Below are positions 1,814 through 53,575 of a stretch of DNA of 64,000 nucleotides, piece after piece (the stretch's first letter is position 1; every line of letters begins with the position of its first letter). The translations under genes and the position numbers were made by a program. The stretch is from NCBI RefSeq assembly GCF_055900595.2, contig NZ_CM148325.1; one strand, given 5' to 3'. The notes beneath the pieces are model-generated. The model saw only the letters and a program-made list of their open reading frames with translations. It searched no databases and had not been told where the DNA came from.

Positions 1814-2135
1814 TTTTCGATCCTTTCATTGTGTTGTCGCACATCCCTGGTGCGTTCTGTCGACGCATCTTTCAGGATGTAACAAAGTGTTTGCAAGGTC
1901 GAGTATAAGGAAAGTTACAGCTTCGGGAAGCGAAAAATGCTGGATTTTAAAGAGAGGTCATATTTTGCAACTTAATGGTTACATTTGTTTGACATAAAAA
2001 TAAAGCCCAACGTGCGGCTTCCAGACTGATGACAACGTCAAAAAAGTACTCGGTCAGTCCCCTCTCCCTGGAAGAGAGAGGGAGAAAACGGTGCTCATGT
2101 TGATGACAAGGTACACGGCTTAGGCAGATTAAAAA

Positions 2136-3101
2136 TCATCCCACCCGCTGCTTATCATGCCGATAATTCACCCAGGCGTTGATAATAAACGTCATCACCA
2201 GAATGCCAAACACCACACCCAGCGAAACGGCGATCGGAATATGGTAGAAGTCGACAATCAGCATCTTGATACCGATAAACACCAGAATCACTGCCAGACC
2301 ATATTTGAGCATCGAGAAACGTTCTGCTACGCCCGCCAGCAGGAAATACATCGCACGCAGGCCGAGGATCGCAAACAGGTTTGAGGTCAGCACAATAAAC
2401 GGATCGGTGGTAACAGCGAAGATAGCCGGAATGCTATCCACGGCGAAAATCACGTCGCTCAACTCCACCAGAATCAGTACCAGCATCAGCGGCGTGGCAT
2501 ACAACAAACCATTCTTACGCACAAAGAAATGCTCGTTGTCGATGGTGTCGGTCATGCGCAAATGACCGCGCAGCCAGCGCACCAGCGGCTTGTCACCAAT
2601 ACCTGATTCATCTTCATGAGCCAGCGCCATCTTCACGCCAGTAAACAGCAGGAAGGCACCGAAGATATACAGGATCCAGTCGAACTGCGAAATCAGCCAG
2701 CTGCCAGTGAAGATCATGATGGTACGCAGAACAATCGCCCCGAGTACGCCATACACGAGCACGCGGCGTTGTAATGCCGCCGGAACAGAGAAATAGCTGA
2801 ACAACATCAGCCAGACGAAGACGTTATCGACCGCCAGTGATTTCTCAATCAGATAACCCGTGAGGAAGGCCAATGCCTGAGGGTCCGCGACTTCGCGCCC
2901 CTGTGTCTGCGCCAGATACCACCAGAAAGCGGCATTAAACAATAACGACAGTGTCACCCAGACCAGCGACCAGGCCGCAGCCTGTTTCATGGTCATGGCA
3001 TGTGCCCCGCGACGCCCCTGCAACAACAGGTCGATAGCCAGCATAATGACGACAACAACAGCGAATCCGCCCCATAGCAACGGCGTGCCGACAGTATTCA
3101 T
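2136..3101 (-). CDS. alx: TerC-family membrane protein Alx
   Basis: 321 aa TerC-like ORF preceded by a long structured leader. Confidence 0.9.
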
Positions 3102-3300
3102 AGAAGTTCCTTACACATAAAAAAACGGCCAACGTCGGAAGACGTCAGCCGCTGCTTTTTATGCATAGACCTCGCCTTCCGGCAAGGTCTCACTTACAAC
3201 AAAAAAGGAATACGTCTGCGTATTCCTTTCGGGTTGCCCGGTGACCGGATGTGGTTTTTCACACATCGTAATGACGATCGACCGGCAATGAAGTTACTCC
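3102..3300 (-). promoter_or_regulatory. sraF: alx 5' leader, yybP-ykoY (Mn/pH-responsive) riboswitch-like element with terminator hairpins
   Basis: minus-strand leader contains AAAGGGGAGUA core, a perfect hairpin AGGAAUACG-CAGA-CGUAUUCCU followed by U6, and a second hairpin plus U7 abutting the alx start. Confidence 0.5.
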
Positions 3301-3383
3301 CCTTTGCAGGTAACAAAGTATGACAGACCATTCGGTCAGTCAATGGTCTGTTACATCCCTTTTACACTGTTTTACTTTGGCTA

Positions 3384-4370
3384 TTATAGTTTTACGCTAT
3401 CTGCCGGAAAAATCACCCCGGTCTGGCGGCGGATCTCGGTCAGCAGCCTGGCGGTGATACGACTGACCGCCAGCCCTGGATGATCTACCAGATGTTCATC
3501 CACCAGGGTAGCGAACAGCTCTGCTTCGTACAGCATGGTATTAATATGCTGCGGTTGGGTAAGATCCTGCATCTGGCTGCCGCGCGGCACATAGCAAACT
3601 TTCTGGCATTCAGACAGTTTTTCAATCACCAGCGATCCCGCTTCGCCCTGAATCTCACTTGCCAGCACAGAATCACTGACCTTTGAGTGCTGCAAGGTAA
3701 CGCTGAAATCACCGTAATCCATCACCACCACGCCGTGGGCATCCACACCACTTGCCAGCAAACTGGCGGTTGCCTGCACGCTTTTCGGTTCACCAAATAA
3801 CGCCACCGCCGACGCCAGACAGTAAAAGCCGATATCCATAATTGAACCGTTGGAGAATGCCGGATTGAAGGTGTTGGGATTCTCGCCGTCCAGATAACGT
3901 TGATATCGCGAGGAATATTGGCAATAGTTGAAAAAGACTTTACGCAATTTGCCAACTTTCGGCAGTACCTGGCGTAACAAATGGAAATTCGGCAGGCTGG
4001 CGGTTTTAAATGCCTCAAACAGCACCACCTGATTTTCCCGCGCACAGGCAATGGCGGCATCCACTTCCGCCAGATTCGACGCCAGCGGTTTCTCGCAAAT
4101 CACATGAATTTTATGGCTAAGGAAAAGTTGTGTCTGGGAAAAGTGCAGGGCATTCGGGCTGGCAATATACACCGCGTCAATAGCATCACTTTCTGCCATC
4201 GCTTCCAGCGACGTAAACAGATGCTCGACAGAAAAATCATTGGCGAAGTGCTGGGCCTTTTCAAGGCTGCGGGAATAGACAGCGGTTAACTTGTATTTAC
4301 CGCTCTCATGGGCGGCCTCGACGAACTGGCGGGTGATCCAGTTCGTGCCAATCACAGCGAAACGTATCAT
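3384..4370 (-). CDS. ygjR: Gfo/Idh/MocA-family oxidoreductase YgjR
   Basis: ORF 3384..4388; start placed at internal ATG (MIRFAVIGTNWI, Rossmann N-terminus), 328 aa. Confidence 0.85.
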   Translation of the reverse strand: MIRFAVIGTNWITRQFVEAAHESGKYKLTAVYSRSLEKAQHFANDFSVEHLFTSLEAMAESDAIDAVYIASPNALHFSQTQLFLSHKIHVICEKPLASNLAEVDAAIACARENQVVLFEAFKTASLPNFHLLRQVLPKVGKLRKVFFNYCQYSSRYQRYLDGENPNTFNPAFSNGSIMDIGFYCLASAVALFGEPKSVQATASLLASGVDAHGVVVMDYGDFSVTLQHSKVSDSVLASEIQGEAGSLVIEKLSECQKVCYVPRGSQMQDLTQPQHINTMLYEAELFATLVDEHLVDHPGLAVSRITARLLTEIRRQTGVIFPADSVKL

Positions 4371-25731: not shown

Positions 25732-25807
25732 TGGTGGCCCCTGCTGGACTTGAACCAGCGACCAAGCGATTATGAGTCGCCTGCTCTAACCACTGAGCTA
25801 AGGGGCC
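25732..25807 (-). tRNA. ileX: tRNA-Ile2 (anticodon CAU, lysidine-modified), 76 nt with encoded CCA
   Basis: reverse complement reads GGCCCCTTAGCTCAGTGGTTAGAGCAGGCGACTCATAATCGC...GGTTCAAGTCC...GGGGCCACCA. Confidence 0.88.
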
Positions 25808-42114: not shown

Positions 42115-42184
42115 TAAACTGCGGGCTTAACAGCCCAAATTCCCCTCCCGCCTACGTTGGGGGGGAGTACCCAGTGGAGGAAGG

Positions 42185-47830: not shown

Positions 47831-47909
47831 CCGGAAAGCGGTTCACAGATCTCGCTTCGAACCAGGCAGGCCTATTGACGCTGTTGTTTTTTCAACCTAA
47901 AGTAAAGGA

Positions 47910-48060
47910 ACAAGGGTAAGGGAGGATTTCTCCCCCCTCTGAATTGGTTGTTAATAAGCCTGGAAACTTACTAGTAACAACACAATCAGTATGATGACGA
48001 ACTTCATCATAACCCTTTCCTTCTATAAGGCCCCTTCTTCGGGAGGGGCTTTCCCGTTTC
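47910..48060 (+). ncRNA. sibE: Sib antisense sRNA, copy proximal to hldE (likely sibE)
   Basis: plus-strand TTGACG-N17-TAAAGT promoter at 47875-47903; plus-strand terminator CCCCUUC-UUCG-GGAGGGG at 48031-48048 then U-rich tract; fully antisense to the ibs ORF; ends inferred. Confidence 0.6.
47951..48010 (-). CDS. ibsE: Ibs-family hydrophobic toxin peptide (19 aa, MMKFVIILIVLLLVSFQAY)
   Basis: minus-strand ATGATG start preceded by GGAAAGGG RBS, TAA stop; sequence fits the Ibs pattern. Confidence 0.75.
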   Translation of the reverse strand: MMKFVIILIVLLLVSFQAY

Positions 48061-48231: not shown

Positions 48232-48286
48232 TATGTGTTAATGAAACCTTCTTGACGCTGATTTTTTTTCAACCTAAAGTAAAGGA

Positions 48287-48436
48287 ACAAGGGTAAGGGA
48301 GGATTTCTCCCCCCTCTGAATGGCCGTTAATAAGCGTGGAAACTTATCAGTAACAGCACAATCAGTATGATGACGAACTTCATCATAACCCTTTCCTTAT
48401 GTAAGGCCCCTTCCTCGGGAGGGGCTTTCCCGTTTC
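48287..48436 (+). ncRNA. sibD: Sib antisense sRNA, copy proximal to yqiK (likely sibD)
   Basis: TTGACG-N17-TAAAGT at 48252-48280; terminator hairpin at 48405-48426; antisense to second ibs ORF. Confidence 0.6.
48327..48386 (-). CDS. ibsD: Ibs-family hydrophobic toxin peptide (19 aa, MMKFVIILIVLLLISFHAY)
   Basis: second copy of the 19-codon ORF with the same RBS context. Confidence 0.75.
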   Translation of the reverse strand: MMKFVIILIVLLLISFHAY

Positions 48437-51882: not shown

Positions 51883-52134
51883 GCTTATTCTCAGGGCGGG
51901 GCGAAATTCCCCACCGGCGGTAAATCAACTCAGTTGAAAGCCCGCGAGCGCTTTGGGTGCGAACTCAAAGGACAGCAGATCCGGTGTAATTCCGGGGCCG
52001 ACGGTTAGAGTCCGGATGGGAGAGAGTAACGATTCTGTCGGGCATGGACCCGCTCACGTTATTTTGGCTATATGCCGCCACTCCTAAGACTGCCCTGATT
52101 CTGGTAACCATAATTTTAGTGAGGTTTTTTTACC
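51883..52134 (+). promoter_or_regulatory. sroG: FMN riboswitch (RFN element) and expression platform in the ribB leader
   Basis: CAGGGCGGGGCGAAATTCCCCACCGGCGGTAAA...CCGACGGTTAGAGTCCGGATGGGAGAGAGTAACG matches conserved RFN aptamer blocks directly upstream of ribB. Confidence 0.85.
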
Positions 52135-52868: not shown

Positions 52869-53575
52869 TCTGTTACCAGCCGCGCCCTAACAGGCGCATA
52901 CGATCTGACATTTGCATTCAACTTCGTTACTTACGGCCCGTAAACGGGCTGCCCGGATATGGAATCGATAACTGCTCCCCCATTTTATCCTCTTCAAGCT
53001 GGTGCTTTATGTAGTCCTGTATCTTCGCCGTGTTCTTACCCACCGTATCGACATAGTACCCTCGGCACCAGAACTCCCTGTTTCTGTATTTGAATTTCAA
53101 ATCCCCAAACTGCTCGTAAAGCATCAGACTGCTTTTCCCTTTCAGATATCCCATAAAGCCGGATACGCTCATTTTGGGTGGGATTTCCACAAGCATATGG
53201 ATATGATCTGCGCAGCACTCTGCTTCCAGAATCCGTACGCTTTTCCACTCACACAGCTTTCTCAAAATACTGCCTATCGCCCTACGCTTCTCTCCGTAAA
53301 ACGCCAGTCTTCGGTATTTCGGCGCAAAAACTATGTGATATTTACAGTTCCAGCGGGTGTGCGCTAAGCTCTTTTCGTCCCCCATTGGGACCCCCTTTTG
53401 ATTTCTTGTTTGACACTTGCAGTTGCCAGACCGCAAGGTGTTTTAACAAATCAAAAGGGGTTTTAATAACTGGCTCAAAGCTGAAAGCTTTCCGGAACCC
53501 CCAGCCTAGCTGGGGGTTTTCTGTGCACAAGAAACCGAAGCTATTACTGGCTTCGGTTTTTATTTTGCTCTTGTT
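52869..53575. mobile_element. IS200 copy (about 0.7 kb)
   Basis: 152 aa IS200-type TnpA plus characteristic structured left end: terminator hairpin AAACCGAAGC...GCTTCGGTTT (53532-53559), hairpin AACCCCCAGC...GCTGGGGGTT, and a long stem pairing with the RBS; boundaries estimated from the expected ~707 bp size. Confidence 0.75.
52927..53385 (-). CDS. tnpA: IS200 transposase TnpA (Y1 HuH)
   Basis: start at ATG for MGDEKSLAHTRWNCKYHIVFAPKYRR; HIHMLVEIPP HuH motif; 152 aa. Confidence 0.9.
   Translation of the reverse strand: MGDEKSLAHTRWNCKYHIVFAPKYRRLAFYGEKRRAIGSILRKLCEWKSVRILEAECCADHIHMLVEIPPKMSVSGFMGYLKGKSSLMLYEQFGDLKFKYRNREFWCRGYYVDTVGKNTAKIQDYIKHQLEEDKMGEQLSIPYPGSPFTGRK

What the first reader, a model, noticed from the sequence alone, without database searches (positions are those of the whole stretch)
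3102..3300. Structured alx leader with yybP-ykoY-like core and tandem terminator hairpins
The minus-strand leader contains the GGGGAGUA core of the yybP-ykoY (Mn-sensing) motif, and two strong hairpins each followed by a U-run, the second abutting the alx start. This fits riboswitch or pause-dependent control of a TerC-family exporter.
Basis: partly seen in the sequence, partly recalled or inferred. Interest (0 to 1): 0.3.

Follow-up and report, generated by a model that had tools for sequence, protein, structure and literature searches.

The report
E. coli alx manganese/pH riboswitch leader
This is the well-studied 207-nt leader of the E. coli alx gene, a manganese- and alkaline-pH-responsive riboswitch with two built-in terminators that controls a TerC-family Mn exporter; it is real but already known, and the standard Rfam model simply fails to detect it.

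Summary
Observation confirmed. On the minus strand, GGGGAGUA (3302..3295) and two hairpin+U-run terminators (3230..3203 and 3153..3124) lie upstream of the alx ATG (3101).

Interpretation supported. The leader differs by 1 transcribed base from the K-12 alx leader (PRE/SraF). Published work shows that leader to be a yybP-ykoY-family Mn2+ riboswitch with a three-way-junction aptamer (crystal structure PDB 9JGM), alkaline-pH sensitisation, mapped pauses, and termination at ~108 and ~190 nt.

It is a false negative. The same model puts crystallised mntP below its own cut-off (41.6 vs 45 bits) and misses 20 orthologous alx leaders.

In 72 Enterobacterales leaders, both L1 strands, A37, P1.1 and P1.2 are invariant. 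P3.1, P3.2, the P4 base and the ON-state C/D helix carry compensatory changes (98.2% paired; 17 covarying pairs). P2 is absent in all.

Possibly new, all minor: the P4 terminator is terminator-like in only 8/72 species; P4 tolerates REP/ERIC insertions; C19 is not universal.

Novelty: already known. Interest: low.

The parts
3315..3343 (-). Inferred sigma-70 promoter: -35 TTGACT (3343..3338), 17-nt spacer, -10 TACTTT (3320..3315); +1 lies 7 nt downstream
   Evidence: Read directly from the sequence. Position is consistent with +1 = 3308. The -10 region and spacing are retained in orthologues. The consensus scan did not call it because the -10 matches only 3 of 6. Inferred, not shown.
3102..3308 (-). 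alx 5' UTR (PRE / SraF / alx riboswitch), 207 nt; nt n = window 3309-n
   Evidence: 17 of 17 published residue identities match only at +1 = 3308. One-base difference from K-12. MFE -100.4 kcal/mol, z -8.5.
3182..3307 (-). Mn2+ aptamer, three-way junction (nt 2-127): P1.1, L1, P1.2, L2 cap, P3.1-L3-P3.2, P4
   Evidence: The isolated nt 1-127 folds into P1.1 + P3 + P4. 98.2% of cells are paired and 17 pairs are compensatory across 72 species. Matches the published 3WJ (PMC12153347, PMC12934788).
3295..3302 (-). GGGGAGUA: the last 2 bp of the P1.1 5' strand plus the L1 5' strand (G9-A14; includes A11)
   Evidence: Invariant in 72 of 72 aligned leaders. Identical to the mntP L1.
3286..3290 (-). 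L2 capping loop region (C19-G23) that replaces helix P2
   Evidence: The junction is 4-6 nt in 72 of 72 species, leaving no room for P2. C19 is present in 58 of 72 and G23 is invariant. Its role in pH sensing is from PMC12934788.
3238..3285 (-). P3 arm: P3.1 (5+5 bp with a 1-nt bulge), 7-nt L3 (UCAUUAC, 3274..3268; Mn-coordinating A37 = 3272), P3.2 (6 bp) and its cap
   Evidence: P3.1 has 6 of 10 and P3.2 has 5 of 6 pairs with compensatory changes. A37 is invariant. The 10 bp / 7 nt / 5-6 bp layout equals the RF00080 consensus structure line.
3254..3254 (-). The only transcribed difference from K-12 (nt 55: C here, A in K-12), in the P3.2 capping loop
   Evidence: Pairwise alignment. The loop is hypervariable across species. 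No functional role is reported for it.
3197..3236 (-). P4 arm: base helix CAAC/GUUG plus hairpin B (3230..3203) with U-tract 3206..3201 = intrinsic terminator B inside the aptamer
   Evidence: Terminator scan. dG -14.4, z -5.6. The base helix has 3 of 4 compensatory pairs. Published in vitro termination at ~108 nt, ~43-46% (PMC9472077). Terminator-like in only 8 of 72 species.
3182..3195 (-). [quoted passage not shown]
   Evidence: Invariant in 72 of 72. GAGACC is identical to mntP. The same bases form the 5' strand of hairpin C in the OFF state.
3167..3190 (-). Hairpin C (P5), OFF-state structure that captures the L1/P1.1 3' strands
   Evidence: Present in the MFE fold. 91.3% paired across species. 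Described in PMC3874183 and PMC12153347.
3136..3181 (-). ON-state alternative C/D (P5/P6) helix: nt 128-136 (3181..3173) pair with nt 165-173 (3144..3136)
   Evidence: 99.4% paired, with 3 pairs carrying compensatory changes, e.g. GGAAGG/CUUCC vs GAAAGG/CUUUC vs GAAUGG/CAUUC. Mutually exclusive with hairpins C and D.
3119..3153 (-). Hairpin D (P6) with U-tract 3125..3119 = intrinsic terminator D
   Evidence: Terminator scan. dG -20.4, z -4.9. 95.5% paired with 3 compensatory pairs. U-rich tail (8-9 U in 10 nt) in 72 of 72. Published termination at ~190 nt, ~10-13% (PMC9472077).
3099..3112 (-). Shine-Dalgarno AAGGA (3112..3108) and AUG (3101..3099); in the OFF fold they pair with the L1/P1.2 5' strands
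   Evidence: The MFE fold pairs nt 8-13 and 16-18 with nt 202-207 and 197-199. Only the CUU:AAG (SD) part is conserved, in 57-59 of 72.
2136..3101 (-). alx CDS, 321 aa, TerC-family membrane protein (Mn2+ exporter)
   Evidence: ORF list. Pfam TerC 1.3e-53. RefSeq annotation.

Best explanation
The region is the 5' untranslated leader of E. coli alx. It is a translational ON-riboswitch of the yybP-ykoY (Mn2+) class with an unusual three-way-junction aptamer.

Transcription starts at 3308.

OFF state:
- The P1.1/L1 3' strand (GAGACCUUGCC) is captured in hairpin C.
- Hairpin D forms.
- The freed GGGGAGUAACUU 5' strand pairs with the Shine-Dalgarno region, so alx is not translated.

ON state:
- Mn2+ is bound between L1 (GGGGAGUA/GAGA) and L3 (UCAUUAC, through A37), and this locks the P1.1 switch helix.
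- Nt 128-136 are then free to pair with nt 165-173, forming the C/D helix.
- That dismantles hairpins C and D and exposes the ribosome-binding site.

Alkaline pH raises cytoplasmic Mn2+ and sensitises the aptamer to it (published). Folding is kinetic: RNA polymerase pauses at ~142-144 and ~177-184 influence which fold wins.

Two intrinsic terminators, B inside P4 (~nt 108) and D (~nt 190), abort a fraction of transcripts. Those products were historically detected as the sRNA SraF.

Shown here: the anatomy, near-identity to K-12, structure significance, and covariation of P3, P4, C/D and D. Taken from the literature: Mn2+ binding, the pH response, termination efficiencies and pauses. Inferred: the promoter hexamers, and that formation of C/D also lowers termination at D.
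For: - Identity: the locus is alx in 5419 of 5426 E. coli genomes. The leader differs from K-12 at 1 transcribed base. 17 of 17 published residue numbers fit +1 = 3308.
- Structure: z = -8.5. Both terminators are significant. The isolated aptamer folds as P1.1 + P3 + P4.
- Comparative, ON model: 72 Enterobacterales leaders give 98.2% paired against 30-44% for the slid controls, with 17 compensatory pairs and 0 of 500 shuffles as good.
- Comparative, invariants: both L1 strands, A37, A114, P1.1 and P1.2 are invariant.
- Strand: conserved G.U pairs (U32.G64 in 69 of 72; G134.U167 in 70 of 72) fix the RNA strand as minus.
- Family core: L1 is identical to mntP on both strands.
- Downstream gene: TerC.
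- Literature: PMC10197570 (Mn and pH reporters), PMC12153347 (3WJ, terminator in P4, P5/P6 switching, A37), PMC12934788 (crystal structure 9JGM, smFRET), PMC9472077 (termination at ~108 and ~190 nt, pause mapping), PMC3874183 (active and inactive structures).
Against: - The Rfam 15 RF00080 covariance model gives no hit on this leader, even at E<=10 with relaxed filters.
- RefSeq/PGAP annotates no riboswitch here.
- The canonical P2 helix is absent.
- L3 differs from the family consensus: UCAUUAC against ACAUACU.
- P1.1 and P1.2 are invariant, so they give no covariation evidence either way.
- Anti-SD pairing beyond CUU:AAG is poorly conserved, 71-76% paired.
- Published probing finds only a modest Mn-dependent shift of the expression platform in vitro (PMC12153347).
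Confidence: 0.95

Rival explanations
1. A ligand-free pH-responsive riboregulator (the original PRE model). Alkaline pH prolongs RNA polymerase pausing at two sites, and this alone redirects folding to the translatable form. The yybP-ykoY resemblance would be incidental.
For: The two alternative folds, with hairpin C/D switching, are real and conserved. Pause-site mutations change expression (PMC3874183).
Against: Re-measurement found that the pauses are shortened or unaffected by alkaline pH, not prolonged (PMC9472077). A37U abolishes pH activation, and Mn binding is a prerequisite for it (PMC12153347, PMC12934788). L1 and A37 are invariant in 72 species, which a pure pausing device would not require.
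Confidence: 0.04
2. The primary product is a free-standing small RNA (SraF, ~108 and ~190 nt terminated transcripts) that acts in trans. Control of alx would be secondary.
For: Two genuine intrinsic terminators lie upstream of the ATG. Up to ~46% of transcripts terminate at site B in vitro (PMC9472077). SraF was first found in an sRNA screen (PMC9472077).
Against: Terminator B is terminator-like in only 8 of 72 species while the aptamer is conserved. No trans target is reported in the papers read. The conserved switching logic ends at the alx RBS. This reading does not exclude the riboswitch.
Confidence: 0.05
3. Leader-peptide attenuation: a short ORF in the leader (e.g. ATG at 3266, 35 aa) couples translation to the two terminators.
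For: Mechanical ORFs exist in the leader.
Against: The AUG at nt 43-45 is present in only 45 of 72 species; it sits in a covarying P3.2 stem. The frame runs through hypervariable, indel-rich P4. No SD precedes it.
Confidence: 0.01
4. Chance motif: no riboswitch, only a structured UTR that happens to carry GGGGAGUA, as the negative covariance-model scan might suggest.
For: No RF00080 hit. The octamer alone is not significant.
Against: The positive control shows that the model is insensitive: mntP scores 41.6 bits against a cut-off of 45. The composite L1 motif occurs once against 0.01 expected. The aptamer shows deep conservation and covariation. There is a crystal structure and genetics in the literature (PMC12934788).
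Confidence: 0.01

Closest known systems
E. coli K-12 alx riboswitch (pH-responsive element PRE; sRNA SraF)
   Same: The same element. It has identical sequence over the 207-nt leader except nt 55, the same flanking genes ygjR-alx-sstT, and the same numbered residues, terminators B and D, hairpins C and D, and SD.
   Different: One base in the P3.2 capping loop (C instead of A at 3254) and two bases in the promoter spacer. No known functional consequence.
E. coli mntP riboswitch (canonical four-way-junction yybP-ykoY; apo crystal structure 4Y1M cited in PMC12153347)
   Same: Identical L1 on both strands (GGGGAGUA ... GAGACC). The same P3 layout of ~10 bp, a 7-nt 5' internal loop and 5-6 bp. Both are translational ON switches for an Mn2+ exporter (PMC10197570).
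   Different: mntP has P2 (4WJ); alx has a 3-5 nt cap instead. L3 is ACAUACU in mntP and UCAUUAC in alx. mntP has no terminator in P4 and no pH response (PMC12153347, PMC10197570). mntP scores 41.6 bits on RF00080, while alx scores nothing.
Rfam RF00080 Manganese (yybP-ykoY) family as modelled in Rfam 15
   Same: The L1 consensus, the P3/L3 architecture, a variable-length P4, and a position upstream of a TerC-family gene.
   Different: There is no hit at E<=10 for this leader, for K-12, or at E<=1 for 20 orthologues. P2, a scored element of the model, is missing.
Intrinsic (Rho-independent) terminators used as attenuators in leaders
   Same: A GC-rich hairpin followed by a U-tract, twice. Partial termination is measured in vitro (PMC9472077).
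   Different: Terminator B lies inside the aptamer's P4, before the ligand pocket is complete, so the ligand cannot gate it in the classical way. The main regulated step is translation, not termination (PMC12153347).

Membership tests
yybP-ykoY / Mn2+ riboswitch (RF00080) | Covariance-model score at or above the Rfam gathering threshold (45 bits) | tested here: not met
   There was no hit at gathering threshold on the window, at E<=10 on 3000-3500, on K-12 alx, or at E<=1 on 20 orthologues. The criterion is unreliable here: the crystallised mntP aptamer scores 41.6 bits, also below the cut-off.
yybP-ykoY / Mn2+ riboswitch (RF00080) | L1 internal loop with the conserved 5' GGGGAGUA and 3' (A/G)AGACC strands, closed by the P1.1 switch helix | tested here: met
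   GGGGAGUA lies at 3302..3295 and GAGACC at 3191..3186. Both are identical to mntP and invariant in 72 of 72 species. P1.1 is pairable in 100% of cells. The composite motif occurs once against 0.01 expected.
yybP-ykoY / Mn2+ riboswitch (RF00080) | P3 arm with an asymmetric 7-nt L3 internal loop carrying the metal-coordinating adenosine | tested here: met
   The 5+5 bp / 7 nt / 6 bp layout equals the model's structure line. 11 of 16 P3 pairs are compensatory. A37 is invariant. The loop sequence differs from the consensus (UCAUUAC against ACAUACU).
yybP-ykoY / Mn2+ riboswitch (RF00080) | Four-way junction with helix P2 (typical of the solved canonical members) | tested here: not met
   Only 4-6 nt lie between P1.2 and P3.1 in 72 of 72 leaders. 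The literature treats this as a 3WJ variant that keeps the metal-binding core (PMC12153347; PDB 9JGM via PMC12934788). I therefore regard P2 as typical rather than defining.
yybP-ykoY / Mn2+ riboswitch (RF00080) | P4 hairpin completing the junction | tested here: met
   The base helix CAAC/GUUG has 3 of 4 compensatory pairs and is 99.3% paired. The distal part varies from 4 to ~55 nt but forms a hairpin wherever it is long.
yybP-ykoY / Mn2+ riboswitch (RF00080) | Selective Mn2+ binding and Mn2+-dependent gene activation | not testable with these tools
   Literature only. Mn-bound crystal structure and smFRET docking (PMC12934788). A 21-fold Mn induction that is lost without the leader (PMC10197570). 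A37U abolishes the response (PMC12153347).
yybP-ykoY / Mn2+ riboswitch (RF00080) | Location in the 5' UTR of a metal-homeostasis membrane protein gene (TerC, MntP/YebN, P-type ATPase, etc.) | tested here: met
   The downstream ORF matches Pfam TerC at 1.3e-53 and is annotated as Mn(2+) exporter Alx.
Intrinsic terminator | Stable GC-containing hairpin immediately followed by a U-tract on the transcribed strand | tested here: met
   Two sites against 0.6 expected. dG -14.4 and -20.4 kcal/mol, z -5.6 and -4.9.
Intrinsic terminator | Actual transcript release at the U-tract | not testable with these tools
   Literature: ~43-46% at site B (~nt 108 = ~3201) and ~10-13% at site D (~nt 190 = ~3119) in vitro, persisting after chase (PMC9472077).

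The most novel reading that the evidence does not exclude
The Mn-sensing core (L1, L3/A37, the P1.1 switch, the C/D-versus-C+D platform and terminator D) is the ancestral, universally conserved device in Enterobacterales alx leaders. The features that make the E. coli element famous are lineage-specific add-ons. The terminator embedded in P4 is terminator-like in only 8 of 72 species. C19, proposed as a pH-sensing partner, is replaced by G or U in 14 of 72. On this reading, attenuation inside the aptamer and possibly alkaline sensitisation would be recent Escherichia-type innovations. In addition, the whole 3WJ subclass is invisible to the current Rfam model and so goes unannotated in genomes.
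Probability: 0.4. Interest if true: 0.3.

Novelty: already known. Interest (0 to 1): 0.12.

Why it matters
For biology it adds little. The alx riboswitch is one of the most thoroughly dissected E. coli leaders, covering genetics, pausing kinetics, co-transcriptional probing, smFRET and a crystal structure.

The practical lesson is methodological. A negative Rfam scan is not a safe refutation for divergent subclasses. RF00080 in Rfam 15 misses the entire three-way-junction alx class and places even the crystallised mntP aptamer below threshold, which is consistent with RefSeq showing no riboswitch feature at either locus.

The comparative by-products could guide follow-up on how pH sensing and attenuation were layered onto a Mn sensor. 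These are the lineage-restricted P4 terminator, the use of P4 as an insertion-tolerant arm, and the variable C19.

Tried and rejected
1. Rfam gathering scan of the whole window: no RF00080 hit.
2. Permissive E<=10 scan of 3000-3500: only noise hits such as STnc370, SNORD2 and mir-192, all far below gathering. These were rejected as chance.
3. Bridging through orthologues: I hoped some alx leaders in other genera would score on RF00080. None of 20 did at E<=1.
4. Dambach et al. 2015 (Mol Cell) could not be fetched by DOI. Its claims are cited only as relayed by the papers I could read.
5. Leader-peptide idea: rejected because the AUG is not conserved and the frame crosses the indel-rich P4.
6. 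Plus-strand reading: there are only mechanical ORFs and one promoter-like match at 3361-3390 inside the ygjR 3' end. Conserved G.U pairs would be A.C mismatches on the plus strand. Rejected.
7. The extended anti-SD pairing (nt 8-13 with 202-207) seen in the E. coli MFE fold is not conserved. Only CUU:AAG is.
8. I did not build a dedicated covariance model.

Full report
**What is there**

On the minus strand, upstream of a 321-aa ORF (2136..3101), lies a highly structured leader. The ORF matches Pfam TerC at 1.3e-53 and RefSeq annotates it as alx.

- GGGGAGTA at 3302..3295.
- A 12-bp hairpin at 3230..3203 followed by U6.
- A 13-bp hairpin at 3153..3124 followed by U7. This U-run ends 17 nt before the ATG, with the Shine-Dalgarno AAGGA in between.

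The terminator scan finds 2 sites against 0.6 expected. The hairpins fold at -14.4 and -20.4 kcal/mol, with z -5.6 and -4.9. The whole leader folds at -100.4 kcal/mol, z -8.5.

The octamer alone is not beyond chance: 2 matches against 0.85 expected. The two-strand L1 signature GGGGAGTA-N(90-120)-GAGACC occurs once against 0.01 expected.

**Identity**

The 371-nt region matches 5419 of 5426 complete E. coli genomes, always between ygjR and alx.

Against K-12 MG1655 the transcribed leader differs at one base: nt 55, window 3254, in the cap of P3.2. Two further differences lie in the promoter spacer.

I took residues that the literature names by number: A11, C36, A37, C58, C73, A74, A132, G134, C135, A137, A149-153, C155 and A156. 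All 17 match only if +1 is window 3308. The leader is therefore 3308..3102, 207 nt, and any nt n sits at window 3309-n.

The published termination products of ~108 and ~190 nt (PMC9472077) fall at ~3201 and ~3119, exactly on the two U-tracts.

**The covariance-model test and why it fails**

Rfam 15 gives:
- no RF00080 hit on the window at gathering threshold;
- none at E<=10 with relaxed filters on 3000-3500;
- none on the K-12 alx locus.

RefSeq shows no riboswitch feature at alx or at mntP.

As a positive control I scanned the K-12 mntP leader. PMC12153347 cites an apo crystal structure of its aptamer (4Y1M). It is found at E 8e-9 but with 41.6 bits, below the family's own 45-bit cut-off.

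I then fetched 80 alx orthologue loci from different species and scanned 20 diverse ones. None gives an RF00080 hit at E<=1.

The model is therefore blind to this whole class. A negative result here is a false negative, not a refutation.

**Feature-by-feature test**

From the numbered sequence and the canonical architecture I wrote an explicit model:

| Element | Residues |
|---|---|
| P1.1 | G2-C127, C3-G126, A5-U125 to G8-C122 |
| L1 | G9-A14 / G118-A121 |
| P1.2 | A15-U117 to U18-A114 |
| Short cap | nt 19-23 |
| P3.1 | 5+5 bp |
| L3 | U35-C41 |
| P3.2 | 6 bp |
| P4 | base helix C73-G112 to C76-G109, plus hairpin B |

The isolated nt 1-127 folds this way on its own.

On an alignment of 72 distinct Enterobacterales leaders, this model plus the ON-state C/D helix is 98.2% paired. 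Controls with the 3' partners slid by 1-3 columns give 30-44%. Seventeen pairs carry compensatory changes, and no shuffle out of 500 reaches any measure.

Compensation per helix:
- P3.1: 6 of 10 pairs.
- P3.2: 5 of 6 pairs.
- P4 base: 3 of 4 pairs.
- C/D: 3 of 9 pairs.

P1.1, P1.2, both L1 strands, A37 and A114 are invariant. That fits strands which must satisfy two alternative pairings and a metal site, but it gives no covariation evidence.

L1 is identical to mntP on both strands. The P3 layout equals the RF00080 consensus structure line. L3 reads UCAUUAC rather than ACAUACU.

The junction where P2 would sit is 4-6 nt in all 72 leaders, so P2 is absent from the class as a whole.

Conserved G.U pairs (U32.G64 in 69 of 72; G134.U167 in 70 of 72) identify the minus strand as the RNA strand.

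**Expression platform**

Hairpin C (nt 119-142) uses the L1/P1.1 3' strand and is 91% paired across species. Hairpin D (nt 156-185) is 95.5% paired with 3 compensatory pairs. Its U-rich tail is present in 72 of 72.

The alternative helix between nt 128-136 and nt 165-173 is mutually exclusive with both hairpins. It shows clean double compensations: GGAAGG/CUUCC in E. coli, GAAAGG/CUUUC in Pluralibacter-type leaders, and GAAUGG/CAUUC in Citrobacter.

In the E. coli MFE fold, the freed GGGGAGUAACUU pairs with the SD-to-AUG segment. Across species only CUU:AAG(SD) is conserved.

**Mechanism**

Combining this anatomy with published experiments:
[quoted passage not shown] Nt 128-136 then pair with nt 165-173 instead of forming hairpins C and D, and the RBS opens.
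- Without Mn2+, hairpins C and D form and the L1 5' strand sequesters the SD (PMC12153347, PMC3874183).
- Alkaline pH acts through Mn: it raises cytoplasmic Mn2+ and sensitises the 3WJ aptamer through the L2 cap and L3 (PMC10197570, PMC12934788).
- Pauses at ~142-144 and ~177-184 shape co-transcriptional folding, but alkali does not lengthen them (PMC9472077).
- Terminators B and D release ~43-46% and ~10-13% of transcripts in vitro (PMC9472077). These products explain the old sRNA name SraF.

That C/D formation should also reduce termination at D is my inference.

**Comparative observations that may be new, all minor**

1. By a simple criterion (inner hairpin at or below -8 kcal/mol and ending in at least 5 U), P4 is terminator-like in only 8 of 72 species: Escherichia, Pseudocitrobacter, and some Lelliottia/Enterobacter-type leaders. 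In many others P4 is a 13-18-nt stem-loop.
2. P4 tolerates large insertions. E. albertii has a ~190-nt REP-containing insertion with a partial duplication of hairpin B. Siccibacter and Franconibacter have ERIC-like repeats there.
3. Atlantibacter sp. RC6 has lost the aptamer interior. Rouxiella retains only hairpin D.
4. C19, proposed to form a pH-dependent C19.A114+ wobble (PMC12934788), is C in 58, G in 12 and U in 2 of the 72 species. A114 is invariant.

**Verdict**

The element is the already-known alx Mn2+/pH riboswitch, a 3WJ yybP-ykoY variant. The suggested covariance-model refutation is invalid because the model is insensitive to this subclass. Interest is low.

Noticed in passing
L002:962-1058 (K-12 mntP leader): The crystallised mntP Mn riboswitch scores 41.6 bits on Rfam 15 RF00080, below the 45-bit gathering cut-off. 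A default annotation pipeline would therefore miss both E. coli Mn riboswitches. NC_000913.3 lists no riboswitch feature at either locus.
   Followed up: partly
L005:~420-585 (Escherichia albertii alx leader): A ~190-nt insertion containing REP/BIME-like palindromes, with a partial duplication of hairpin B, sits inside the aptamer's P4 arm. L1, L3 and the platform are intact.
   Followed up: partly
L014:~420-595; L035:~300-595; L034:~570-690; L036:~500-680: ERIC/IRU-like repeats (weak CssrA / V_AS5 Rfam hits) are inserted in P4 in Siccibacter and in tandem in Franconibacter. In Phytobacter diazotrophicus one lies between terminator D and the RBS. In Erwinia persicina one lies within the hairpin D region.
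   Followed up: partly
L029:590-703 and L078:600-703: Atlantibacter sp. RC6 has an internal deletion that fuses the L1 5' side to hairpin C, apparently between CCTTGCCGG direct repeats. Rouxiella aceris lacks the aptamer and keeps only the hairpin D terminator upstream of alx.
   Followed up: no
window 3197-3236 versus alignment A2 columns 133-197: The P4-embedded terminator B is terminator-like in only 8 of 72 species, whereas terminator D's U-rich tail is universal. The 'tandem terminator' layout is lineage-restricted.
   Followed up: yes
window 3290 (C19) / alignment A2 column 19: C19, the proposed partner of the pH-dependent C19.A114+ wobble, is G in 12 and U in 2 of 72 species (Pantoea, Mixta, Pluralibacter-type leaders). 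A114 is invariant.
   Followed up: partly
window 47875-48025 and 48252-48401 (+): Two tandem SIB RNA antitoxin genes (RF00113, 143-147 bits), i.e. a Sib/Ibs type I toxin-antitoxin pair.
   Followed up: no
window 51883-52031 (+): FMN riboswitch aptamer (RF00050, 120.9 bits).
   Followed up: no
window 53395-53518 (-) and 25735-25807 (-): STnc490 Hfq-binding sRNA (RF01405, 146 bits) and one tRNA gene.
   Followed up: no
window ~2040-2135 (-), between alx and sstT: A long GC-rich inverted repeat (CCCTCTCTCTTCCAGGGAGAGGGG) followed by a T-run lies downstream of the alx stop. The corresponding K-12 region attracts several spurious miRNA-family matches, which suggests a strong palindrome, probably the alx terminator or a REP-like element.
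   Followed up: no
window 42162-42169 (+): A second exact GGGGAGTA octamer. This is consistent with chance (0.85 expected) and has no associated GAGACC partner.
   Followed up: yes
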